DNA of 33,278 nucleotides. It comes from Chrysochromulina tobinii (taxonomy: Eukaryota). The DNA lies in the NCBI GenBank assembly GCA_001275005.1, contig JWZX01002339.1, forward strand, positions 1 through 33,278. Reading direction: 5' to 3'. Position 1 is the stretch's first letter, and each line of letters opens with the position of its first letter. Shown here one piece after another: positions 3,001 through 33,278 of this stretch. The position numbers and the translations under genes were made by a program. Below the pieces are notes generated by a model. The model saw nothing but the letters and a program-made list of their open reading frames with translations. It did no database searches and was not told the DNA's origin.

Positions 3001-6000
3001 GCAGCAGTGTGAGCATCGAGTGTGCCGTCGGTACGTCGGCGACGGCCGCACGCCGAAGGGCTTCGAAGACGACGGCGGTTGCGAGATCGGGTCTGGCGCG
3101 CGCGAGACGCTGCGAGATCAGATGGCGCGCGCAATCCGCACTCCATGGCAACCCTTGCGCCATGAGCGCGGGAGGCGCGACCGGGTCGGCGCACGCGCCG
3201 TAGGCGTGTAGCAGCCTCTCGGCCATCGCGCGCACCAGGCCGCACGGATCCCCCAGCTTGCACAAAGCGAGCACCACCAACGGCACACGGTGCGCATCTC
3301 CCGCGAGCGCACCCATCGCCGCGCTCGTCGCCGACGGCGGAGCGAGCGGGCGCTCGATACGGCGCGACTCGTCTCGCTCGGGAGACGTGTGAGCGGCGCG
3401 GGCCAGACTGTGAACGTTCACACCGGCCTCGTCCCACCCCCAGGGTTGCGCGGACGAGGTGGCGGCGGAGGGGGCGGAGGGGGCGGAGGGGGCGGAGGCG
3501 CGGCCGGGCGTCGGGCGGAGGGACACGAGCACAAGGGCGATGAAGTGGGCATTCGAGGTGGCGGCCGCGCTGGACGCATCGGAGGACTCTTTGGCTTCGT
3601 TGGCGGCACGGTAGCAGGTCTCGAGGCATCGTGGGATAGGGTCGTGGCACGCTGCCCAGAGCGCGCACAGCGCGTCGCGCGCGGCGGAGCTTACGGCCGC
3701 ACAAGGCGAGTGCAGGAGCACCTCAGCACAGCGCAGAGGCAGCCGAGCCTCGAGAGGCCTCCCCTCATCCGCAGGCAGCCCCGAGACGGCCTCGGGCGTG
3801 GCCAGGGCTGCGAGGGCGCGCAGCGCAGCGAGCTGCACCGCCTCGGACTGTGCTCGACACGACGCGCCGAGCTCGTCGGCGAGGGCGCGCTCGACACGGC
3901 GCTCGACACGGGCGGCCCCAGCCGGTGGGAGCCGTTGGGCACTCATCAGCCGTGCGCGTTCGGCCTCGAGTGCGTCGGCCGCTCCGTCGGACGAGAGCGA
4001 GGAGACTAGCTCGGCGACCCGAAGTAGGAGAGCACCTGGGAGCAGCGCCTTTCGCTGTGTGCGGTGCTGCGCGTCGGCGGCGGCGAGGGTGGTGAGCAGA
4101 TGCGGCGTGGTGCGGCTGAGAAGGTCGAAGAAGTGCTTGCGGGCGCGCTGGAGCAGCCAAGCGTGCTGGTTGCCCATCGAGCCATCTGGCCCTTTGAGGG
4201 CCAGGTACTCGAGGGCGCCATGCATCCAGCGCGCGAGTGCGGCGAGCGGTGCGCCCACTTGCGTCGTGAGCAGCGTGCACCATCCGCGCTGGTCTGAGAG
4301 CAGCGCGAGAACGTGCCCGAGCTGTCGCATCTTCATGTGGATGGGCGAGGCGACGTTCTTAGCGTCCCGCCGCCAGTCGGACCAGATGGACGCGTCATTG
4401 AGTTCGGGAGCGAGCACAGAGAGCACGAGCTGCACCGCCGCGCCGCCGCGCAGCTGCCCGAGGACCGCCGAGGCCGCCACGCGGTGTGCCTCGGTGTCAC
4501 ACACGAGCAGGCTCACTCCGTCGCGCAGAAGGCGCTCGACGTCGGAGCGGCACGCGTCGCCCGCGTCATCGTGGCCGAGCACGGCGAGGGCGCACCCGCT
4601 CGCGAGCGAGGCGTACGGCGCCCACGACGACGGCAGTTGCGTGCCCGAGGCCAAGGCCGCCCTCACCCCCCCCACCATGCTCTGCATGCGCTGCATGATC
4701 ATGGGCCACGCCGCACGGAGCGCAAGTGCGCATCCCTCCCCTTCATGCTGGCCGCCCGCCGCAAGGGCGTGCACGATGCCATGCAAGCAGCACAGCCAGA
4801 GCTCCTGATCTCCCTCGGAGCTCCCGCACGCCTCGACGAATGCGCGAAGGTCGGCGCGCGCCGCGGCGTCGCGTAGCTGCGCGGCGGCGGCCGAGCTTGG
4901 GCGAGCCATGGGGGGCGAGCTCGCGCCAAAGCCGCTCCATAGGTGGAGCTGCAGAGGGTCGGAGAGCGCGCGTTCGGCGATGGCGGGCAGCTTCTGGATG
5001 AGCAAGTCGATGAGGCACGCGCTCGTGACGGCGCGAAAGGCGGCGCTCGCGGTGGGCGCGCCAGCGGGCGCGGGCGCGGCGCTGTCGGCGACGGGGGCCG
5101 AGGCCCTGGCGACGGGTGCGACGAGGGCCAAGAGCTGCGCCGCTTCGCCGCGTAACTTGGGGCACTGCTCGGCGAACAAGATGAGGGCGAGAGCTTGCAT
5201 GTCGTCGATGCAGCGGTGGCGCGCGAGGTGACGAAACATGCGTGGGACAGAGAGCCACTCACGCAGCAACGGCGCCACCTGCTGCAGCGCCTCTTGGCGG
5301 CGGGCGAGCGCGGCCGGGTGCAGATCCCTGAGAGTCTTGGTAAGGGCTGCGAGGGCGGCAGGCAGCGTGTCCAGAGTGCCGTTGGCCACGATGTGCGCGA
5401 GCAGCGAGGACGCGGCGGACTGCAGCAGCCGCTCCGTACCGCACAGCTGTGCAGCGAGCAGCGGCAGCAGTGCAGCGGAGATGCCGAGGGCGCGCAGGCA
5501 AGCATCGGTCTTTGCGCCGAGGAGCGCGATCTTGTCGCCCTTGGACTTGCTCTCAAACCCCAGCTGCTGCACTAAGCTCTCCAGGCCCAGCTCCTGCACC
5601 GAGCGCTCGACGACCTCAACGGCTTTGACGTCCGCCTTGAGGCCGAGCTGCTGCCGAAGCAGCTCGACCTTGGTGTAGTCGTCGCCGGGCAGCAGCTGCT
5701 CAAGCGTGATCGGTGCTTCGTCAGGGTGAGGCGGCGGCCGGAGCGCGCCCGCCACGGCGCCCGACGAGCTGGCAGCTGGGTGCGGCCAGAGCAGGCGCAG
5801 GCAGCGCAGGGCACCGTGCATGAGCTGCACAGAGAGCAGCCAAAGCAGTGGCTCGCGAGCGGAGGCTCCCTCTTGGAGGTGCGCGCTGGCGGCACTCCGG
5901 ACGACCATGTGCACGACGCGCTCGGTCACCTGATCAGGGAGGCCATCAGAGACCATCAGAGACCATCAGAGACCATCACAGGCAATCAGTGGCAATCAGT

Positions 6001-7927
6001 GGCAGTCGAAGCTCATCAGTGGCAATCAGTGGCAATAATTTGGCAATCAGTGGCAATCATTTGGCAATCAGTGGTCATCGGAGCACATGAGTGGCAGTCG
6101 GAGCGCATCAGTGCCCAGCTGATGCACAGCAGCGATCGGTCACCTCTGCAGCGTGCGCGCCGAGCGCATCCGGCTGCCTGTGGAGGAGACGGCGCAGTGT
6201 GCCGAGCGCGAGCACTGTGTGCTGACCCCAGCGTTTGGATCCAGCGGATCCCTCCCCCCGCAGCCCTGGCAGCACGATGCGCTCGAGGAGTAGCTTCGGC
6301 TCCACAGAGCCCACGGCGAGCGCAAGGGCGGCATGCCCTTCGAGCAGCTCAGCGTACCTGATGAGGGATGCCATCAGAGGCCATTAGAAACGAGTGGAGA
6401 CCGACCCTCAGTGGTCATCAGAGGGCAATCAGCGTACCGGCGGAGCACGAGCGTGAAGTCCTTGCGATCTCGAGGCATCTCGAGCTGCATCGCGACGGCG
6501 TCCTTGGTGGCGAAGAGGCGATCGAGCAGATCCTTCACTTCTTTCGTCGCGGCGCGGCACGAGAGCAGCAGCGGCAGTTGCAGCCGCATGCAGCGCAGCG
6601 CAATCACCCGGTGCTCACTATGCTTCAGGCACTCCTTGATCTTGCCCAAAAGCTGGACGTGCAGCTCCACTGCCTTCTCACTCAGCCCCTCGCTGAGGCC
6701 GCCGCCGCCGCCGCCGCCGCCGCCGCTGGTGTCGGGGCCGAGGAACCCCACGCCACCCTCGGCACCCCAAGCGGGCACAACAGCGCTGCCCGCGCTGCGC
6801 ACGGCACAGAGCAGCGCGGTGGCAAGCGGCGCGCTCCAACTCTCGAACTTCGCGTTGCGCTTGATCGGCTTCTTGATCTTCTTGATCAGCCACTGCGCAA
6901 GCTGCAGCTCGAGTGCGTGGAGCTGCGCGAGGGCACGCGCGTCGCGCTCCGAGGGCGGCGGCGCCACGCCACCTGAGCGCGCCGCCTCATCCAGCGCCTG
7001 GTCGAGCAGCGCCATCCCGAGCGCCTCGGCCACCGGCCGGCGCAGCGGCTTGATCGCCTGGTTAAAGAGGACGCGAGAGGCGATGCGCTCGAGGAAGACA
7101 CGAGTCGGCTCGGCCGCGCCGCTGCCGCTCGCACCGCCGACAGCGCCGCCGATGGCCGGCAGCCCGCTCCCGCGCGGCAGCTGCACCCCCTGCAGCGACG
7201 AGCACATGGCAAGTGTGCCGAAGTCGGGCGACCAGTCGCTTCGGCCCAGCCAATCGCTGCGGCCGCTCCGGTCGCTGCCCGTATTCTCGAGGTGGAGCAG
7301 CACCTTGTGGGTGAAGGATTCGAAGGAGCGAAAACGCGCGGAGGAACTCTCGCCCAGGTTGCGGCACAGCGCGCGCACGAGCTCCGTCCACAGTGCCTCC
7401 TCGGTGCGGCCACCCAGCGCGAGCAGCCGCCGGCGCGCGGCCTGCTGCCGCGTAGCCGACGACGCTGCGCCGCCAAAGGTGCGGAAGAAATCGAGCGCGC
7501 ACTCTTGGAGGGAGTCCAGCATGATGCTGTCGCGGCAGCACGCCGCTCCCAGCGTCGCGAGCATCGCCTCGCAGAAGACAGTGTTGACAGCGCTCTCGCG
7601 GCTCTCACGGTCCTCTTCGGACGGCGTGGCTGCCCCGGGCCACTCGCGGGCGCGGCGCATCCAGTGCATGAGCTCGGCCGCGACGCCATCACTCGCGTAG
7701 CGGGCGGCCGCGGCCAGCGATCGCAGCGCGAACGCAAAGCCTGAGTGCTGCGACGCCGTGTTGCAGCTTTGGAGTCGCTGGTCCTCCTCAAATGGGTCAT
7801 CATCGAGAGGCGAGCACAGTACCTCGCCGATCCGTGCGTACGCGGTAGCTTCGAAGGCACTCATCGCGTCATTGAGAAGCGAGTGCGAGCTCTCGGCACA
7901 GCTCCATTGGATCTTGCGCTGGGCCAT
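1..7927 (-). CDS. Furry/Tao3/Mor2 (MOR2-PAG1)-like cell morphogenesis scaffold; exons 7927-6438, 6357-6144, 5929-<1; 3' end outside window
   Basis: N-terminal LRSLAAAARY..AELMHW..RESAVNTVFCEA..LVRALCRNLG..ARF and distal RLLTCTAALLPWL..IATVLNNYATSQY..FL resemble Furry N- and C-terminal blocks. Removing two GT-AG introns joins ORF 6374-7945, ORF 6108-6374 and a frame that appears open from 5929 to the window edge. First ATG at 7927. Confidence 0.8.
2486..2550 (-). repeat. 12-nt coding tandem repeat (GCTCGGCACGGC x5.4) encoding (SAVP)n in the Furry-like protein
   Basis: Perfect tandem copies visible in sequence. Confidence 0.9.
5930..6143 (-). other. Spliceosomal intron 2 of Furry-like gene (214 nt)
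   Basis: Minus strand GAG|GTGACCGATCGC...CCCTGATCAG|GTGACCGAGCGC; in-frame stop inside; (ACTGATTGCC)n and (TCTCTGATGG)n 10-mers; removal restores frame. Confidence 0.85.
6358..6437 (-). other. Spliceosomal intron 1 of Furry-like gene (80 nt)
   Basis: Minus strand CCG|GTACGCTGAT...CCCTCATCAG|GTACGCTGAG; removal joins LVLR to RYAELLEGH in frame. Confidence 0.85.
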
Positions 7928-8983: not shown

Positions 8984-9462
8984 GCCTATACCTTCGCTTC
9001 GGAAGGATCCGATCCGCGCGGCTTGTAGAACCGTCTCCGCACCAACTCAGCTGTGAGGCGTCCTCGCGGTCTCGGCGATCCTTCTCCCGTCACCCGCGCG
9101 CTCCTGCCGCTTCACGCGTCGGGCCCTAGCTTTATAGGCGTCCGTCGTGCGAGTAGACGAGAAACGAGGTCGGATGGACGGACACGCGCCATACCGACGG
9201 AAACGTGCCAAGTTTGATTTACCTTGGAGTGCACCAAGTTTGATTTTGCGCAAAGCATGATATGCATGCCGACCCGCTCAAACGCGTCCCCCTATGGATC
9301 CTTCAAAGCTTCAAAGCCGCACTGTCGATTCTAATCGACAGTCACCATAGCACAGAGTGTGGCAACCAATTTGGGGTCTGGGGGCATGCAGTACGAACTC
9401 ATCAATGCCGATCATCCTCGTCGCTCATCGCCGCCCATGGCTCGCCCAAGTTCCTCGCTCAC

Positions 9463-10362
9463 TTACAGTTGGCGCAGCTTGTAGCCAGTCACCAGCTGCC
9501 ACACGAGCAACTCCCTGAGCTTCAGCCCGCTCGTCTCCATGAACGACTCCCCCCCCACTCCCGATTCGGAGAGAATCTTCTCGATGAGCGTGCGCATCGC
9601 TCCGAGCACGTCCTCCGAGATGGACGCAGTGAGACTCGCCACATCCTCCCGGCCAAGGCCCTGCAAGTACGTCAGCAAGTCGCCGCCGCCGCCGCCCTGC
9701 GCCGCCTCCGCCTTTTTGCTCTTGGCGAGCTCTCTGCGAAGTTCCATGGTTTCCCTGCGCAGCTCTGCCATGTACGCGCTCGCCTCCACTTCCGTCTCCA
9801 CCGTGTCCGACAGCCGCAACTTAATCTTGCCCGCCACAGGTGGCAGCGGCCTCGCCTCCTCGACGCTATCCACCTCGGGTGGGCTCAACGACGCGCTACC
9901 CAAGTTCTCGCTTCCGGCAAGCGACTCGAGCAGACTGCGCCGGTACTCGGCATTACGAAACATGTAGCCGGTCATCTGCATGGAGAACATAAGCGAGGCC
10001 AGGTTCTGGCCGGTCGACATGACGTTGACGTCATACAGATGCGGTGGCAGCTTGCCGAGGAGTGAGACAATAGTAGCCCGCACGGCCTGCTGCACGGCCG
10101 ATGGCGCCGAGCTCGCAAATCCATCGATGAGCTCCGGTGGGGGGATTTTCTGGATGGCATCGACGTACCGATTGATTGGCAGTGCGAGTGGGCCGCTCTC
10201 GGCGTCATCCACGTCGTCCGCGTGGAGCCGCACCTGAGTGAGCCTTGGCAATGCCCTGATGTGGCTGAGCCTTCTTGGCACAACAAGACCGAGGCGTTGC
10301 GAAGACGGGAAGGTGATTGATGTGCCGCTGAGTAGCGACGCCATGGCCATAAAGACGCGCAT
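9463..10362 (-). CDS. DUF760 family protein, probably plastid-targeted
   Basis: Two DUF760-like halves: TIVSLLGKLP..YDVNV..TGQNLASLMFSMQMTGYMFRNAEYR and DLLTYLQGL..LRELLVWQLVTGYKLRQL. Likely ATG at 10362 gives a hydrophobic leader followed by an S/R-rich transit-like peptide. Confidence 0.88.
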   Translation of the reverse strand: MRVFMAMASLLSGTSITFPSSQRLGLVVPRRLSHIRALPRLTQVRLHADDVDDAESGPLALPINRYVDAIQKIPPPELIDGFASSAPSAVQQAVRATIVSLLGKLPPHLYDVNVMSTGQNLASLMFSMQMTGYMFRNAEYRRSLLESLAGSENLGSASLSPPEVDSVEEARPLPPVAGKIKLRLSDTVETEVEASAYMAELRRETMELRRELAKSKKAEAAQGGGGGDLLTYLQGLGREDVASLTASISEDVLGAMRTLIEKILSESGVGGESFMETSGLKLRELLVWQLVTGYKLRQL

Positions 10363-10578: not shown

Positions 10579-12204
10579 TCAGGGGTTCAATGCCTCCACA
10601 ATGTGCTCCTCCTCCACCTCCCGCGTCCCACGACTGCTGATTGCTAGTCGCCGCTCGGCCGCCACCGCTACGCGTTCGCGCTTCGCCGCCGCCACGGCCG
10701 CCTTGGCCGCGCCTCCACGGGCCGAGGCAGGCCTGGCGCTGGCGGACGAGCTGCTGGCAGCAGCCTTAGCGGGCCCACCGTGGACCGCAGATGCCGTGGC
10801 GCCCCTGCCTCCTGCACCTCGGAGGCCGCCGGCACCTACCGTCAGTGTCTTGGGAGCTGCGGCCGCCTGAGCCGCTCCACCTTCGCGTGTGCTGCTCGCG
10901 TCAGCGCCTGGCTCCCTCCCGATCGTCTCCCTATCGCGAGGAGCCGTGGCAGCGGCTCCCGCAGCGGCCTCCGAGGAGACCGCGGCGCTGGCGCCGCCGC
11001 CCGCCGCCGCCGCCGCGAAACGTGCCTCGGCGGCAGCTGCTGCCTTCTCGCGCAGCTGGGCGGGCGTCGGCGGCGCGAAAGGTGGCCGACTACGCGCGGC
11101 GGGTCCTTTTTGACTTGATGCTCCTCCTGCCTTGAGCGCCGCCCCGAGCGCGGCGGGTCCTTTTTGACTTGTTGCTCCTCCTGCCACGAGCGCCGCCCCG
11201 AGCACAACCCGGCTGCGTGGCGCTCCTGGCGCGGCGGCAGCGCTGCGCGGCGGTGGTGGCGAGGGCTCGGCGGTGACACTGCCCCCGAGGCGGTGGCCGG
11301 ATGTGCCGTGCGCACTTTCCGACATGGTAGCTTGCATCTGGCGTAGACGACCGACGTGCTCGTCCGCCTGGCGGTCGTAGCGTGCAAAGGTCGCCGCCGT
11401 GGAGCTGAGCGGCACGAACCCCCCCGAGTCTGCCGCGGACGACGAGGCGGAGCTGGCGCCCAAGGACGCGAGCGTGTGCACGTAGCCCGAACCCTCGCGA
11501 GCCCCGCCGTCGCTACAAGTGCCGCAGACGGCAGCCGAACTGTCGGTGAGCGGCAGCGGTGCGATGCCCTCGCGCTCAACTCCCGAGAGGAGGCTGCTCA
11601 TGCGTGTGATACCACCGCACACGGCGTCGAGATGTGGCTTCTCCTCCGACCAGCCGCCGAGGTTGGACTCGGTCGTCTTGCCCTGACGCGCTCGCTCGGC
11701 CGCGGTCTCGAAGATGGTCGCGTGCGCGCCATACGGTTCGCCGCAGGAGCCGCATCTCCATGTCGATTGGAACCCCTTGCAGTCGCATCCCGGGTGCTTA
11801 CACACGGTGGGCCGGCCATCAGGCTTGCGGTGCTCGTGGTGCTCGTGCTTGCACGAGCACCGCAGGTGGGTGCCGCCTCGGCCTGGCACGTAGGAGAAGC
11901 ACGAACACTTGCACCCATCGACGCGGCAGCGGATTCGCTTGGAGTCCGTCTCGTACCACGCGTGCGAAGAGTACGAGTGCGTGCAGAAGCATCGCGTGGC
12001 TGGTCCGATGGTCTGGCACTCGGTGCGTGCGACCGGAGCGGTCCAGTACACGTAGAGCCGGGTTCCTTGACTCTTGATCTGAAGCGCCTTCCGCGTTAGC
12101 TCCTCGAGGTCTGGCGTACTGGCCTGGCCCATGAGCAGATTGGCTTCGTAAAAGGAATCGACTGCAGCCGCGGCATCACGCTTGCTGAGGAAGTCCGAGG
12201 GCAT
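10579..12204 (-). CDS. FAM221A/B-like (DUF4475) Cys/His-rich protein with Ala-rich low-complexity tail
   Basis: IGPATRCFCTHSY..H, C..GCKC..FSYVP, RCSCKH..H, C.GF.S.W.C..CG.PY.AH.TIFET..ER...GK, GGIT..SSL match the FAM221 pattern. Confidence 0.85.
   Translation of the reverse strand: MPSDFLSKRDAAAAVDSFYEANLLMGQASTPDLEELTRKALQIKSQGTRLYVYWTAPVARTECQTIGPATRCFCTHSYSSHAWYETDSKRIRCRVDGCKCSCFSYVPGRGGTHLRCSCKHEHHEHRKPDGRPTVCKHPGCDCKGFQSTWRCGSCGEPYGAHATIFETAAERARQGKTTESNLGGWSEEKPHLDAVCGGITRMSSLLSGVEREGIAPLPLTDSSAAVCGTCSDGGAREGSGYVHTLASLGASSASSSAADSGGFVPLSSTAATFARYDRQADEHVGRLRQMQATMSESAHGTSGHRLGGSVTAEPSPPPPRSAAAAPGAPRSRVVLGAALVAGGATSQKGPAALGAALKAGGASSQKGPAARSRPPFAPPTPAQLREKAAAAAEARFAAAAAGGGASAAVSSEAAAGAAATAPRDRETIGREPGADASSTREGGAAQAAAAPKTLTVGAGGLRGAGGRGATASAVHGGPAKAAASSSSASARPASARGGAAKAAVAAAKRERVAVAAERRLAISSRGTREVEEEHIVEALNP
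11094..11201 (-). repeat. 54-nt coding tandem duplication (LGAALxAGGAxSQKGPAA x2)
   Basis: Copies 11094-11147 and 11148-11201 are nearly identical. Confidence 0.9.
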
Positions 12205-12417
12205 CTAGTGACGGTTTGACTTGTGACGAGTGACAAGAGACGAGCTCGAGCGCTTCTGTGCGGATTTGTCGCGCGTGTGAACGTTAACACGACGTATTGA
12301 AGTGAGTTGCAACCACTCAGCCCTTAACTTGACCTAATTAAACTTGACATATGGAGTTTTTCGCGGGACTCATTATGGGTGTTCCTCCGCGCGGGGCACA
12401 CCACACGCCACCTGTGC

Positions 12418-13539
12418 ATGTTAGTCATAATCGTCCTCGCGGCCGCCGCACAGCTGATCAGCCTGTTGCCCAACGCCTTTTCTCGAAACGAGTGCGAGGA
12501 GATCGTCAATCTCTTCCAATCCTTTAAAGCCGAGAAGGACGTGCGAAGCAACCCTTTGCTCCCGCTCATGGAGGGTTCACCGTTTCGTGTGGCACGCGTG
12601 AACCGCTTTGACGATGGCACGGATCCCCATAGCATACGGAAGCTGCACGAGGCTGTGCTCGTCAGGGTCAGATCAGCTTTACGCGACCATGTCTTGGTCG
12701 ACCAATTGGAGACCGTCGATGCCTTCTCGTCGGCCGTCGCATTCACGCTGCTGCACGAATTCGTCGCAGAGCAGCATGACCACTTCGACTGGCACATTGA
12801 CACCAAACCAGGCGACGGTACTGGGCGGACGATGAACATCAACGTCATGCTGTCTGCTGGCGATGCCTACGAGGGTGGCGAGCTACAAGTTGGTAACACG
12901 ACTTTGAAGCCGCAGCAGGGCTCCATTTACGTGTATCCTGCTGCGCTGCCACACAGGGTCACCAGGCTGCAACGTGGACGTCGATATACTCTCATACTAG
13001 CCCTCGCCACGCGGGACATGTCTGCGGCAGCGGGAGGCGTTGAGGGAGGCGTGGCATCGGATCGCAACGCCGACTACTGGCATGACTACTGGCGGGTGCG
13101 CGAGGCCGCCTTCGGTGAACTTCTGGCAGAGACGACTGGCAGCTTGGCGGATGAACCCAAGGTACACATATTGCACGGAGAAGTACTCGAGGCAGCAGGG
13201 CGAGAAGACGAGGCTCAGCAGGCTTTTTGCCGCTCCTACCGAGCACTCTCGGATGGCGGCCTGCGGCTCAGTGGCAAATTCTACGAATCGGGTGTAGAGG
13301 CGCTGCAGGCAGAAGGGCGTGACCTAAAGCGTGCCGAGAGGTTTCTGGCCATGGCGGCCTGCATCGATAAAAATCACGGCGAGGCTGTGGCCGCCGTCGA
13401 AGTCGTGCGTGAGGCACTTGCAATCGTACGCCGGCGGGATGATAAGCGGGATGAAGGCGTGCCAACAATCATGAAGAATTTCATTGAGAAAGACCCGACT
13501 CATGTCGCGATGACGCTGGGCGAGACAGAAGATTTGTGA
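12418..13539 (+). CDS. 2OG-Fe(II) dioxygenase (prolyl-4-hydroxylase/PKHD-like) with signal peptide, TPR-like helices and C-terminal TEDL
   Basis: FDWHID (HxD), YEGGEL, LPHRVT (distal His), GRRYTL (2OG-binding Arg); MLVIIVLAAAAQ leader from ATG 12418; VHILHGEVLEAAGREDEAQQAF TPR-like. Confidence 0.85.
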   Translation: MLVIIVLAAAAQLISLLPNAFSRNECEEIVNLFQSFKAEKDVRSNPLLPLMEGSPFRVARVNRFDDGTDPHSIRKLHEAVLVRVRSALRDHVLVDQLETVDAFSSAVAFTLLHEFVAEQHDHFDWHIDTKPGDGTGRTMNINVMLSAGDAYEGGELQVGNTTLKPQQGSIYVYPAALPHRVTRLQRGRRYTLILALATRDMSAAAGGVEGGVASDRNADYWHDYWRVREAAFGELLAETTGSLADEPKVHILHGEVLEAAGREDEAQQAFCRSYRALSDGGLRLSGKFYESGVEALQAEGRDLKRAERFLAMAACIDKNHGEAVAAVEVVREALAIVRRRDDKRDEGVPTIMKNFIEKDPTHVAMTLGETEDL

Positions 13540-17410: not shown

Positions 17411-17587
17411 GGACGTCCACGACGACGCGTATCCGTACTTTTCGCGAACTTTCGTTGAGCACGGTCAACTCGTGTCGCTTCACAGCAGTGGTCTTTTCTG
17501 TCCTTTCTGCTGGATTTCGTTCTCGTTGACGAAATGCGCTCGCTTTCAGTCCTGGAGAGCGACGTGGCGAGGTCCTCGTGGACGTCC

Positions 17588-18854
17588 ATGGACTCCTCGT
17601 CTGTGGAGGCGAATTCTGCGACAGCAGCCTCCTCCAACGGCGAGCGCCGCCCCGCTAAGAGGGCCAGGCGCTCTTCGCAGGTTGCGGGTTCATCCTCAGC
17701 CGCCGCGCCCGAGCCCGCGGCGGGGAGCGGGACCGACCACCTTACGCCGTCCTCCGACAAGGCACTCGAGCACCTCTCATGCGCTGTGTGTCTATCCATC
17801 CCCGAGGACACGGTTATGCAGTGCCAGCTCGGACACATCATATGCGCCGAGTGCCACCTCCGTGTCTGCATCGAGGACAAACCCATCTGCCCGACGTGCC
17901 GTATGCCGCTCGATCCTCTCAACCCGATCAGAAACGTCCTTGCGGAGCAGACGATCGCGCTGCTGCCGGCTGAGTGCACGAACGCGGGCTGCACCGCCAA
18001 ATGCACGCGCGGTACACTGCACACACATCTCTCGTCCGAGTGTGCCTACCGTACCGCGGTATGCAAATACCATCCACTTGGCTGCAAATGGAGTGGTGTG
18101 CAAAGGGCCTGCGGACGGCACGAGGACCGGTGCAAGAAAGCGGACATGCCCGGTTGGAAGCTGCTGAAGAAGGTGGAGCAGGTGCAGGAGGCACAGGCGG
18201 CGGGAGCCAAGCGTGAGCGCGAGGCCGCCAAAGCCGACGCACTCGTCGTTGCGATGCTTTCCACACGTTGCCGAAACCTCGAAGTGTCCCACGTGACGTT
18301 GCACAAGTGCTCCGCACATGAACATGTTGCAAGCCGGCCTGCCCACTTGGCCTCGGCCGCGTTCCAAGCTCTTGGCTGGCGCTTTAAGCTCTACACCGTG
18401 CACGACAGCGCGAGCGGCACCTACCAGGTGGCCCTCCAAATGCGTGACAGCCGCGAGCTGCCCGTGGACTTTTTCGTGGTGTGTGGTCCCGGTATCCGAG
18501 ACGTTCGCCCCACGTCCGTGAGCCACATCTTCGGGCGTGCCCGCGACGCACGCACCAGCACGCCCGTCAACCATTGCTGAGGGCGACGCGGCCGCGGCGC
18601 TCGCCAACAGCGACAGCCTCGTGCTGCGCATTGGCATCGCCGACCGGCGCCCTGGCCGCCTGTCGCGTGATTTTCAAGGGCAGACCTCGTATGGGGGCGG
18701 CGGTTACGGCGACGAGGACGGCTACGGCGAGGAGCGCGACGACGACGACGACGATGACGGCTGGAATTCGGATTCGAACGACGTCGACGACTTTGACGAC
18801 GATGACGAGTCACTCTATGACCACGACGAAGGTCCTCCGCGGCGTTACCGATAG
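17588..18854 (+). CDS. CYHR1/ZFTRAF1-like RING plus TRAF/SIAH-type zinc-finger protein, with apparent +1 frameshift at ~18569
   Basis: CAVCLSIP..VMQCQLGHIICAEC..CPTCR..RNVLAEQTIALLPAEC..CKYHPLGCKWSG. Deleting one A at 18569-18570 joins ORF 17534-18580 to TIAEGD..SLVLRIGIAD and an acidic tail ending at 18854. Confidence 0.8.
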
Positions 18855-30640: not shown

Positions 30641-33228
30641 AGCCCCCTAAGGATGACGGGGCGTCGGAGGCGGCGGCCGAGGGCCCTCCCGCGGCGTTGC
30701 TCCTCCTCACGTCCAAGTTGGACACGTGCGGCGTGGTCGACCATGCGAATGGGCAATACACGTGCGGGTACACCGCGCCTACCCAGGTGGGCTTGCTCCA
30801 AGTTGGGGTCGCCATCAACGGGGCGGATGGGCCGTGCTGCGCGGTGACGGTGGTGCCCGCAGCGGCCGATCCGAGCATGACGACCCTCACGATCGAGCCC
30901 GAGGCGTGCGTCGTTCGCGCGGGCGAGCCTCTCATCGTGATGGTGCAGCCGCACGACGTGTTCGGCAACTGCTGCGAGCTCGCGCCAGCTCAGCTCGAGG
31001 CACTGCTGACAGCCGTCCCGGCCAAGCGAAGCGATCCGACCTCGCCGCCCGCCTCCCCGGCCACAGGAAGCCCCTCGCCCGCCACGCGCTCAGGACAGCG
31101 CGCGGCACGCTCGTGGGGCGTCATCGAGGGAGTGAGCCGTCACCTTGGGGTACAGGCACCGCAGCATCTGTTCGGACCCCTCGCACTACGCCCCAATAGC
31201 ACTCGCGTCGGCACCCATGCTCTGCAGGTGACGTCCCACACATTGATTACACTGGATTACACTGGATTACACTGGATTACACTCGCATCGGCACCCATGC
31301 TCTGCAGGTGCGCTGCCGCGGCACCATCTGCACAGAGCCCATCTACTTCGAGGTGATCCCGGGCGGTACGTGTGCACATCGGTGCACCCTCGTCGAGCTC
31401 CCTGGAGAGCGGGGCCTGTGCGCCAGCGCCAACCCCCCTCGCAAAAAGTTGCTGCCACAGCCCGACTGGTACGACATGACGTTGATCGCTCGCGACGCGT
31501 ACGGCAACCGCACCGGCGTCGGAGGCGACGAGGTCAGCGCCACGCTCGAGATGGAGAGCCTTCGAGGCTCCAAGTTCGCCAGCCGGTTACGCGCCCACCT
31601 GCTGCCGTTAGACCCGGATCCGCCGACGATCATCGATCGCGAGAACGGCACGTATTGCGTGCGCGTGCCGGCGACGCGACCGGTGCGCCCGCCCAAGCCC
31701 CTGGTCTTGCCCCATGCGGAGGAGGACGATGCCACTACCGGTAAACTCAACGCGCTCAAATGGATGGGTAAGGTCGTCCGGCGCAAGGACACGCAGCTCG
31801 AAGCTCTCGCCGTGATCGAGTCGGTCGAGGGACGAGAGGTGACGCTGCGCTGGGTCGCTACCGGCAAGACGGCCAAGGGCAAGCCCGAGGCTCTGCTGCG
31901 TGGGCTGGATGAGCGCACGTTCGTCAGTGAGAAGCTCCAGGGACGTGTGGAGAAGACGGACGCGTGCGCCAGACTTTGCGATCGAACACGCTCTTGAGTG
32001 CTCTCGAGGACCACTGATGACCACTGATGACCGCTGATGACCGCTGATGACCGCTGATGACCACTGATGACCACTGGTTGGTCCCTTCGAATCACTCTCC
32101 CTGTATCGCGCCCCCCGCCCTCCCTCTCACCCCCTACCCTCCCTCTCACGCTCCCTGTATCGCACCCCCCGCCCTCCCTCTCAGGTACGGTGACCTCGAG
32201 ATCAAGGCGCTCGATGCCGAAGATCCCAATGGCAGCCCAGGCGCTCGTGCACTCAGCTACGTCGTCGACGACGGCGCCAAGACCTTTCGGCTGACCCCGG
32301 CTGACCTCATCTCGGCGCTCGAGGAGTACCGTGAGATGATGGAGGCGACCGAGCTGCATGAGGTGAGGCGCTCTTGATTGCTCCTGATTGCGCTTGATTG
32401 TGAGAGGATGGGAGGTAACCGAGCTGCATGAGGTGGGCTGTGGGGAAGTGAGGTGGGCTGTGGGGAACTCGTGCTGCTCATGCGTGGACCGCCGCTGAAA
32501 GCCTCCCTGAATGCCACCGAATGCCTCCCTGAGTGCCACTGATCGTTTCCTTCATCAGGTGCTGTGGGGAAGGTACACGCTGCGCCTCTTCGTCAACGGC
32601 GAGCTAGCCGCGACTGAGGTGCTCGACATTGAAAACCCACTCAAGCTCTTCGGCTCGGCTTCGTCACTACCTAACGGAGTCCTCAAGGCCGTCTCGCGCG
32701 TGAACGCGAAGGCGGCGCTCGAGCAGGTGAGGCACTCTTGATTGCTCTGGATTGCTCTGGATTGCGCTTGATTGCGCTTGATTGCGCTTGATTACTTGAG
32801 CAGGTGAGGCGCACATTCGAGGAGCGAGGGGTCCAGCATGCAAGTGCTCACCACGGCGCCCGCCCCCACTTCCCACAGGTGAGGCGCACTTTCGAGGAGC
32901 GAGGGGTCAAGATGGACAAGGGTCTCGAGAGCGTGCTCAAGGAGAAGGCAGCCGAGATCGAGGAGCTCTTCCTCGACATCTCGGACCGGAACGCCGCGCG
33001 GGAGAAGGAGGAACGTGATGAGCGAGCAAGGGCGCAGCAGGCAGCGGGCCAACAGGCACGTTCACGTTCACACCGGAAGCGCTCCGTCCGCCTAGCTCTG
33101 CCAGGCAAGGAGGAGGTCGAGGACGGGGACGACGGGGACGAGGACGAGGACACTACCAAGGACAGTGACGAGGACGAGAAGGAAGAGGATGCCGACACTA
33201 CCAAGGACGCGGCTGCGGCTGCGGCGGC

Positions 33229-33278
<50 letters not shown>
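26698..33278 (+). CDS. Large Kelch-repeat / IPT-TIG / filamin-type Ig repeat protein; exons 26698-31227, 31308-31963, 32185-32362, 32559-32726, 32879->33278
   Basis: Kelch motifs (RAAHAV..VVAGG, RRHHTL..SFGG, RRAFHS..VLGG, LLLFGG); IPT-like GVTP...SVGGGTPLRLHG.HF; filamin-like G.G...AVAG..T.LRVTA....G.RR.RGGD, D..NGQY, ARDAYGN. Four GT-AG introns restore a continuous frame. Confidence 0.8.
27490..27653 (+). repeat. (CAGCAC)n and (CAG)n tracts encoding poly-QH and poly-Q
   Basis: Directly visible. Confidence 0.95.
31228..31307 (+). other. Intron A of Kelch-filamin gene (80 nt)
   Basis: CAG|GTGACG...(ACTGGATTAC)3...CTGCAG|GTGCGC; phase 0, joins HALQ to VRCRG. Confidence 0.88.
31964..32184 (+). 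other. Intron B of Kelch-filamin gene (221 nt)
   Basis: GC|GTGCGC...(ACCRCTGATG)n...duplicated pyrimidine tract...TCTCAG|GTAC; phase 2, joins KTDA to YGDLEIK; donor less certain. Confidence 0.75.
32363..32558 (+). other. Intron C of Kelch-filamin gene (196 nt)
   Basis: GAG|GTGAGG...TTCATCAG|GTGCTG; phase 0, joins ELHE to VLWGRYTLRLFVNG. Confidence 0.85.
32727..32878 (+). other. Intron D of Kelch-filamin gene (152 nt; internal CAG|GT at 32803/32804)
   Basis: CAG|GTGAGG...(TGATTGCGCT)n...CCCACAG|GTGAGG; phase 0, joins ALEQ to VRRTFEERG. Confidence 0.8.
33230..33278 (+). repeat. (GGC)n microsatellite running to window end
   Basis: Directly visible. Confidence 0.95.

What the first reader, a model, noticed from the sequence alone, without database searches (positions are those of the whole stretch)
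32341..32910. Introns containing internal copies of their own spliced exon-exon junction
Seen: intron D contains TTGAGCAG-GTGAGGCGCACATTCGAGGAGCGAGGGGTC (32796-32833), nearly identical to the predicted spliced junction TCGAGCAG|GTGAGGCGCACTTTCGAGGAGCGAGGGGTC. Intron C contains ACCGAGCTGCATGAG-GTGGGCTGTGGGGAAG (32418-32448), against the spliced ACCGAGCTGCATGAG|GTGCTGTGGGGAAG, and the right half is repeated again. Inference: either successive duplication-insertion events at one site, or copying from spliced mRNA/cDNA or an intronless allele back into the intron. I know of no described mechanism that routinely does this.
Basis: partly seen in the sequence, partly recalled or inferred. Interest (0 to 1): 0.8.

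Follow-up and report, generated by a model that had tools for sequence, protein, structure and literature searches.

The report
Introns copied from neighbouring introns
In this alga many introns consist of a 15-45-base duplicate of the neighbouring exon plus a short piece likely copied from another, often nearby, intron, and the two flagged introns hold a copy of their own exon junction most likely because a second such insertion landed across the start of an earlier one.

Summary
Confirmed, and part of something larger. RNA contigs splice C (32363-32558) and D (32727-32878) exactly, and both hold their own spliced junction. In 623 kb of related haptophyte DNA, 128 of 247 motif-defined acceptors have an upstream copy of the next exon's start (null 8). 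The duplications are 12-53 nt (median 29) around a ~50-nt insert with variable ends, 2-3-nt microhomology and no terminal inverted repeats. One 81-nt intron is present or absent between alleles, with a perfect 33-34-nt duplication. Inserts resemble neighbouring introns (7 of 27 loci; 1 expected); the 5' 21-mer of C and D is shared by them alone. Junction copies recur (6 of 76; 0.25 expected). In four other loci the intron start shares substitutions with the internal copy and not the exon, favouring a second duplication-insertion across an existing donor over cDNA copying. The enzyme and the template (DNA or RNA) are untested; D's interior was not bridged in independent DNA contigs; the sample is motif-ascertained. 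Ten literature searches found no description. The scan noted junction copies in another protist (e1-7376132), but not this system.

The parts
26698..33278 (+). Host gene, at least 1977 aa after splicing A-D, kelch repeats, open at the window end; haptophyte host
   Evidence: Pfam kelch; named hits of a neighbouring gene: Emiliania huxleyi 56%, Coccolithus
32331..32365 (+). First copy of C's outer duplication: last 32 nt of exon 3 plus 3 nt of the donor
32363..32558 (+). Intron C, 196 nt, GT..AG
   Evidence: RNA joint in X14, X15, X17; DNA contig spans it in X8, X10, X11
32363..32399 (+). C outer insert: donor plus three 10-nt units; its first 21 nt match only D's 5' end in 623 kb (2 mismatches allowed)
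32400..32448 (+). C internal junction copy: exon-3 end (32400-32432) followed by exon-4 start with a 2-nt insertion (32433-32448)
32449..32467 (+). Later tandem duplicate of the internal copy; shares the 2-nt insertion
32468..32558 (+). C inner insert ending in the acceptor used
32727..32878 (+). Intron D, 152 nt, GT..AG
   Evidence: RNA joint in 5 of 5 RNA runs
32727..32797 (+). D outer unit: 9 nt like the exon-5 start, then about 6 copies of a 10-nt unit
32798..32833 (+). D internal junction copy: 6-8 nt of exon-4 end plus 30 nt of exon-5 start (inferred former donor region)
32834..32878 (+). D inner insert, 45 nt: high-copy 19-nt core (32836-32854, branch-point-like, inferred), pyrimidine tract, acceptor
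   Evidence: depth about 12000 against about 40 in DNA runs; 135 or more hits
32879..32908 (+). Exon-5 start, second copy of D's 30-nt inner duplication
   Evidence: family D12
31228..31307 (+). Intron A, 80 nt: simple one-step example, 10-nt array followed by a 31-nt copy of the upstream exon end that supplies the acceptor
   Evidence: (family D14), RNA joint in X13
31964..32184 (+). Intron B, 221 nt, 10-nt array and internal repeats
   Evidence: RNA joint in X12, X13

Best explanation
The junction copies are likely scars of two successive insertions, each of which duplicated 15-45 bases of the target and added a piece likely copied from another intron, the second one landing across the donor of the first. 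Step 1 (structure shown; order inferred): synthesis runs about 30 nt into the exon, switches by 2-3-nt microhomology to the 3' part of another intron (core, pyrimidine tract, AG), and returns to the start of the duplicated stretch. If that stretch begins with GT/GC, the result is a precise ~75-80-nt intron whose 5' end is a copy of the next exon, so the DNA around its donor already reads as the spliced junction. Step 2 (inferred): another insertion, usually a 10-nt array, duplicates a stretch straddling that donor; the first copy stays the donor and the second becomes the internal junction copy. C has a third, tandem event. Templates are often within a few kb (statistically shown); C's 5' part was probably copied from D's (direction inferred). 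I think the copying is most likely DNA-templated repair synthesis with template switching (polymerase-theta- or MMBIR-like; untested), and splicing is only the filter that lets insertions survive in exons.
For: Duplications: 81 of 162 and 47 of 85 motif-defined acceptors have an upstream copy of the next exon's start at score 15 or more; null 5 and 3. In 91 clean cases the duplication is 12-53 nt (median 29), 29 are perfect, and 90 begin GT or GC. Allele pair: L012 and L053 lack the 81-nt intron of L116, which is a perfect 33-34-nt duplication plus a 47-nt insert; the rest differs at 11 of 619 columns plus two short indels. That insert is identical to the 3' end of an intron about 440 nt away in L053. 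Local source: best match inside the same locus for 21.7 of 100 sites (2.6 expected, permutation max 12 of 3000) and for 7 of 27 loci (0.99 expected, max 6 of 5000, exon sides unrelated). L066 12523 carries exon-derived bases from the duplication of the intron 2.5 kb upstream, joined by 5 nt of microhomology. Microhomology averages 2.95 nt (n=19) and 2.09 nt (n=32) at array junctions against 0.37 and 0.36. Insert ends vary continuously around the core. Junction copies occur in 6 of 76 testable introns (0.25 expected). The internal junction lacks AG in 6 of 9 cases, so the outer unit could not have been the first intron there. High-similarity local pairs occur on both strands at a similar rate (11 of 146 same, 3 of 38 opposite), and an antisense in-frame 69-nt insertion in L019 carries that gene's private variant.
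Against: No enzyme was identified, no genome was held, and no reverse transcriptase or transposase was seen in the 3 repeated ORFs scanned, which is far too little to show absence. A ~54-nt donor-carrying variant occurs near-identically in 9 loci, which looks more like a master element acting in trans. Most sites (about 78 of 100) have their best match outside their locus, although each locus holds few candidates. Loci were fetched because they contain the core, so frequencies are not genome-wide. Introns outside the window are predicted from motifs, not from RNA. Gain versus loss at L116 has no outgroup. D itself scores only 6 in the junction test, and 15 of 91 sites were skipped because filler lay directly upstream. 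The array-based local test is weaker and includes tandem copies (21.7 of 219 against 6.6; permutation max 19.3).
Confidence: 0.65

Rival explanations
1. Same two-step anatomy, but the template is RNA: a reverse transcriptase (non-LTR or Penelope-like, or an RNA-templating repair polymerase) primes at a nick on nascent pre-mRNA or excised intron RNA nearby, and a staggered second nick gives the long duplication.
For: Long variable duplications are known for non-LTR insertions (Dualen median 900 bp, R9 126 bp; PMC9977147 passages). Microhomology at both junctions, truncated copies, a local source and one dispersed near-identical family also fit. Acceptor-carrying inserts end at AG, the 3' end of an excised intron.
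Against: Ending at AG is also forced by selection for splicing, and non-spliceable inserts end at scattered points. Inserts run past the presumed branch point. No poly(A) tail was noticed in the contexts printed, no Rfam match reached a family's gathering score in 6 loci, and no RT was seen (tiny sample).
Confidence: 0.2
2. A family of short non-autonomous transposons (introners or Replitron-like elements) with local hopping and fuzzy ends; junction copies are nested insertions.
For: Very high copy number of the core; co-option of one splice site from the duplication, as in introners, including a Chrysochromulina family (PMC9860276 passages); Replitron-1 shows variable duplications and parent-derived ends (PMC10288648 passages).
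Against: No fixed termini, no terminal inverted repeats in C or D, duplications of 12-53 nt against 3-9 nt for introners, inserts as short as 21-36 nt (15 cases), and two unrelated filler types behave alike.
Confidence: 0.1
3. The internal copy was copied back from spliced mRNA/cDNA or from an intronless allele.
For: The copy reads exactly across the splice junction; intronless alleles do segregate; in L049 the intron start is slightly closer to the exon than to the internal copy.
Against: In L039, L062, L067 and L054 the intron start shares substitutions with the internal copy and not the exon. The copied length equals ordinary duplication length, and the two-step model yields the copy with no extra assumption.
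Confidence: 0.04
4. Misassembly of short reads around repeats.
For: D's interior is not bridged by a listed DNA piece; both flanks are very high-copy repeats.
Against: C is spanned by one contig in 3 of 3 DNA runs; the copies differ from the exons by substitutions and indels; the same layout recurs in 7 loci from other assemblies.
Confidence: 0.01

Closest known systems
Break-repair neointrons of Daphnia pulex (PMC4202315, passages)
   Same: New introns with a direct repeat of the adjacent exon end at the far end of the intron; presence/absence polymorphism; repeated secondary events inside young introns.
   Different: Daphnia repeats are 4-12 bp and the inserted DNA mostly has no known source. 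Here duplications are 12-53 nt, and the insert is a recognisable piece of other introns that brings a splice signal and often comes from a neighbour.
Introners (PMC9860276 and PMC12130899, passages; review PMC11282704, passages), including a Chrysochromulina family with 4-bp TSD and no TIR
   Same: Repeated intron sequence; one splice site carried and the other co-opted from the duplication, in both polarities; precise splicing.
   Different: No end-to-end similarity: about a third of each intron is site-specific exon copy, both ends vary, duplications are long and variable, and copies capture parent-site exon sequence.
Intron gain by tandem genomic duplication, and by intron transposition (as listed in PMC3296678, passages)
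   Same: A duplicated exon segment supplies a splice site; an existing intron is the source of new intron sequence.
   Different: Here both occur in one event: a short duplication plus a partial copy of another intron. Pure tandem duplication has no foreign insert, and reverse splicing would give a whole intron and no long duplication.
Replitron-1 and Dualen insertions in Chlamydomonas (PMC10288648 parts 1-2 of 7 and passages; PMC9977147 passages)
   Same: Variable-length target duplications; Replitron-1 copies carry parent-derived flanking sequence.
   Different: Those are 0.9-4-kb elements with defined termini and a known enzyme, and were not reported as making introns in the passages seen.
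Stwintrons and recursive (zero-length exon) splice sites (PMC8469720, abstract and passages; recursive splicing recalled)
   Same: D and C look like two abutting GT..AG units.
   Different: 6 of 9 junction-copy introns have no internal AG, and no partial joint was listed in RNA contigs (depth 4-7, low sensitivity).

Membership tests
Introner (Gozashti 2022 definition) | Many introns share sequence | tested here: met
   253 core sites and 271 array blocks in 623 kb; depth far above single copy
Introner (Gozashti 2022 definition) | Similarity reaches both intron boundaries | tested here: not met
   One end is a site-specific exon copy of median 29 nt, and insert ends vary; only the ~54-nt donor-carrying variant comes close
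Introner (Gozashti 2022 definition) | Short TSD (3-9 bp) and/or TIR typical of DNA transposons | tested here: not met
   Duplications 12-53 nt (the screen could not see short ones); no TIR in C or D
Introner (Gozashti 2022 definition) | Splice site co-opted from the duplication, precise splicing | tested here: met
   RNA joints for A-D; 90 of 91 copies start GT or GC
Break-repair (staggered DSB) neointron | Direct repeat of exon end at opposite intron end | tested here: met
Break-repair (staggered DSB) neointron | Derived allele segregating beside an empty allele | tested here: inconclusive
   One pair, L116 against L012/L053; no outgroup to polarise
Break-repair (staggered DSB) neointron | Dependence on end-joining enzymes | not testable with these tools
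   no genome held, no genetics
Non-LTR/Penelope-like retro-insertion | Fixed 3' end or tail with 5' truncation | tested here: inconclusive
   5' ends vary; 3' ends cluster only in the spliceable class and are scattered in the others
Non-LTR/Penelope-like retro-insertion | Autonomous RT element sharing the 3' end | not testable with these tools
   records not held; 3 repeated ORFs were a kinase, a beta-helix protein and no match
Stwintron / recursive splicing | Internal splice site needed and used in an intermediate | tested here: inconclusive
   Internal AG-GT present in C, D and L067, absent in 6 others; no partial joint listed at low depth

The most novel reading that the evidence does not exclude
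A transposon-free chain reaction of intron gain: any intron in this haptophyte can template a daughter a few hundred to a few thousand bases away, because a repair polymerase or reverse transcriptase copies part of it into a staggered break with a ~30-nt duplication. This one process would build most of the genome's introns, their 10-nt arrays, the junction copies and in-frame peptide insertions, and it is still segregating in populations.
Probability: 0.45. Interest if true: 0.88.

Novelty: new variant of a known kind. Interest (0 to 1): 0.74.

Why it matters
The source of new intron sequence is unknown for most gains outside introner bursts (PMC4202315 passages). Here source and scar are both readable: parent-daughter pairs, long duplications that date each event, nested events that give their order, and segregating alleles. 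That makes it directly testable whether break repair or RNA-templated copying creates introns. Introner pipelines that demand end-to-end similarity (PMC9860276 methods passages) would be expected to discard these introns, so the route may be undercounted. The duplications also make exon boundaries ambiguous for gene annotation in haptophytes.

Tried and rejected
No whole genome is held and the records behind the loci could not be searched, so there is no unbiased genome-wide count. The core was absent from viral contigs. Rfam on 6 loci gave one sub-threshold hit, so no tRNA or snRNA origin was seen. Repeated regions in L066 and L058 were checked as candidate autonomous elements and are a kinase, a beta-helix protein and an ORF without match. 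Recursive splicing: no partial joints listed, but depth is 4-7 and contigs drop rare forms; removing only D's outer unit would leave an in-frame 25-aa insertion. The hole in D's interior in Logan contigs proves nothing either way. The RNA fold of D was not obtained (over the size limit, not repeated). The catalogue (253 events, redundant; 189 after collapsing) defines filler only by core and array positions found earlier, so inserts of other kinds are missed; its class labels are mechanical and some 'none' rows are spliceable or spurious. Not held: the Emiliania genome paper (I recall it noting 10-11-bp tandem repeats in introns, unverified) and the paper asked for. The C. tobin genome paper has no passage on such introns under the terms searched. 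Literature searches; none listed a description of this architecture. Supplements were not opened; the introner family tables of PMC9860276 and PMC12130899 could include related haptophyte families.

Full report
Setting. The window is GC-rich eukaryotic DNA. A neighbouring gene's named relatives are haptophyte proteins (Emiliania huxleyi 56% identity, Coccolithus). The flagged introns lie in a + strand gene starting at 26698 that encodes kelch repeats. Removing four GT..AG introns (A 31228-31307, B 31964-32184, C 32363-32558, D 32727-32878) leaves a stop-free 1977-aa frame to the window end. RNA contigs join across D in 5 of 5 RNA runs laid, across C in 3 of 5, across B in 2 of the 3 laid over it and across A in 1 of 3.

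The observation. D holds its spliced junction at 32796-32833, 36 of 38 bases (shuffle max 23). C holds it at 32418-32448. Ungapped the match is 22 of 29, equal to the shuffle maximum, but all 29 match once a 2-nt insertion is allowed, and the exon-3 part extends back to 32400. One DNA contig spans C without differences in 3 of 3 DNA runs. D's interior 32794-32832 was not bridged by a listed piece.

It is a genome-wide architecture. The 19-nt core at 32836-32854 and the 10-nt arrays are hundreds to thousands of times deeper than single-copy DNA. Of motif-defined acceptors, 81 of 162 (core type) and 47 of 85 (array type) have an upstream copy of the next exon's start, against 5 and 3 with swapped exons. 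In 91 clean cases the duplication is 12-53 nt (median 29), the insert has median 50 nt, and 90 copies start with GT or GC. The mirror class also exists: the insert carries the donor and a copy of the upstream exon end supplies the AG, as in window intron A. A collapsed catalogue gave 189 events: 76 acceptor-carrying, 26 donor-carrying, 27 with both sites inside the duplication, 60 with no precise splice in that orientation. These numbers come from loci chosen for containing the core, and introns outside the window are predictions.

A single event seen in alleles. L012 and L053 lack an 81-nt intron present in L116; it is a perfect 33-34-nt duplication plus 47 nt of insert, and the remaining alignment has 11 mismatches in 619 columns and two short indels. 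There is no outgroup, so gain is inferred from the perfect duplication.

Where inserts come from. The L116 insert is identical to the 3' end of an intron about 440 nt away in the empty allele's gene; a near-identical variant also occurs in L005. Across core sites the best match lies in the same locus for 17.5 of 129 (1.9 expected), for 21.7 of 100 when only loci with culture-type names are used (2.6 expected), and for 7 of 27 loci in a locus-level test (0.99 expected, permutation max 6 of 5000), with unrelated exon sides. In L066 the intron at 12523 contains bases that belong to the exon-derived duplication of the intron 2.5 kb upstream, joined by 5 nt of microhomology, which gives a direction. 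In the finding itself, the first 21 nt of C match only D's 5' end in 623 kb. D's first 9 nt are exon-5-like, so D to C is the simpler direction, though the reverse through an 11-nt microhomology is possible. Array junctions show 2.95 and 2.09 nt of microhomology against about 0.37. Insert ends vary on both sides, down to 21-36-nt inserts. Similar local pairs occur on both strands. Several 3n inserts sit in open frames, one of them antisense in an L019 gene and carrying that gene's private variant (no RNA check). Against a purely local picture: one ~54-nt donor-carrying variant is near-identical in 9 loci, most best matches are in other loci, and the array-based test is weaker.

Why junction copies arise. 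An acceptor-carrying intron begins with a copy of the next exon, so the DNA around its donor already reads as the spliced junction. A second insertion whose duplication straddles that donor leaves the first copy as donor and the second inside the intron. Six of 76 testable introns show this at score 12 or more (0.25 expected); 15 of 91 were skipped, D scores 6, and L062 was seen only in the looser screen. In these cases the intron start matches the internal copy for 3-15 nt, so the whole duplication is 15-43 nt, the usual size. In L039, L062, L067 and L054 the intron start shares substitutions with the internal copy and not the exon; L049 leans weakly the other way; L105 and L092 are uninformative. 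The internal junction lacks AG in 6 of 9 cases, so the inner intron came first there. For C and D, which have the AG, the order is inferred by analogy. C's second internal half shares the first's 2-nt insertion, a third DNA-level duplication. No cDNA step is needed.

Mechanism. Shown: anatomy, splicing of A-D, polymorphism at one site, local enrichment, microhomology. Inferred: order of events and template switching. Untested: the enzyme, and whether the template is DNA or RNA. I put 0.65 on DNA-templated repair synthesis, 0.2 on an RNA template, 0.1 on a fuzzy-ended transposon, 0.04 on cDNA copying and 0.01 on artefact. The two-step origin of the junction copy is common to the first three, about 0.95.

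Comparison. It works like an introner (one splice site carried, one co-opted) and like Daphnia break-repair introns (exon-end repeats), but it fails the introner test of end-to-end similarity and short TSD, and its repeats are longer than Daphnia's 4-12 bp with an identifiable source. Papers were seen as passages only, except PMC10288648 (parts 1-2 of 7 plus passages). Ten searches listed no description of this architecture; the library lacks most subscription papers, and supplements were not opened. Verdict: real; the flagged oddity is a by-product of an apparently undescribed, locally templated route of intron gain. New variant of a known kind; interest 0.74.

Noticed in passing
window 5915-6160 and 6345-6450, - strand: Two more array-containing introns, each flanked by a 10-11-nt direct repeat across the splice sites; not RNA-checked.
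   Followed up: partly
L005 +10417, L008 +15153, L019 +6997, L036 +6941, L095 -271: Duplication-plus-core insertions of 48-69 nt (all multiples of 3) lying in open frames, two of them antisense; apparently in-frame peptide insertions made by the same process.
   Followed up: partly
L064 + 5300-5760, L051 + 9420-9640, L013 - 12060-12210, L030 vs L069: Whole intron units repeated head to tail 2-5 times; copy number differs between L030 and L069 (94-nt unit). How they are spliced is unknown.
   Followed up: no
L008, L025, L033, L059, L062, L070, L072, L089, L111: A ~54-nt donor-carrying variant (donor, two 10-nt units, core) is near-identical in 9 loci and may be a master element.
   Followed up: partly
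window 32804-32878: D's inner unit is 75 nt and stop-free in frame; use of the internal AG at 32803 would add 25 residues.
   Followed up: partly
window 32438-32458 vs 32858-32878: The exon-4 start and its copies are partly the reverse complement of the common acceptor tail; probably chance.
   Followed up: no
window 20077-22035 and 22157-25978; 17534-18580: Adjacent ORFs of a NACHT/ankyrin gene, and a RING/TRAF gene that stops just before more coding-like sequence, suggest frameshifts or unseen introns.
   Followed up: no
91 acceptor-carrying introns: Duplication and insert lengths are negatively correlated (r = -0.62, n = 101 events up to 110 nt), keeping introns near 70-90 nt, which suggests a minimum intron length.
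   Followed up: partly
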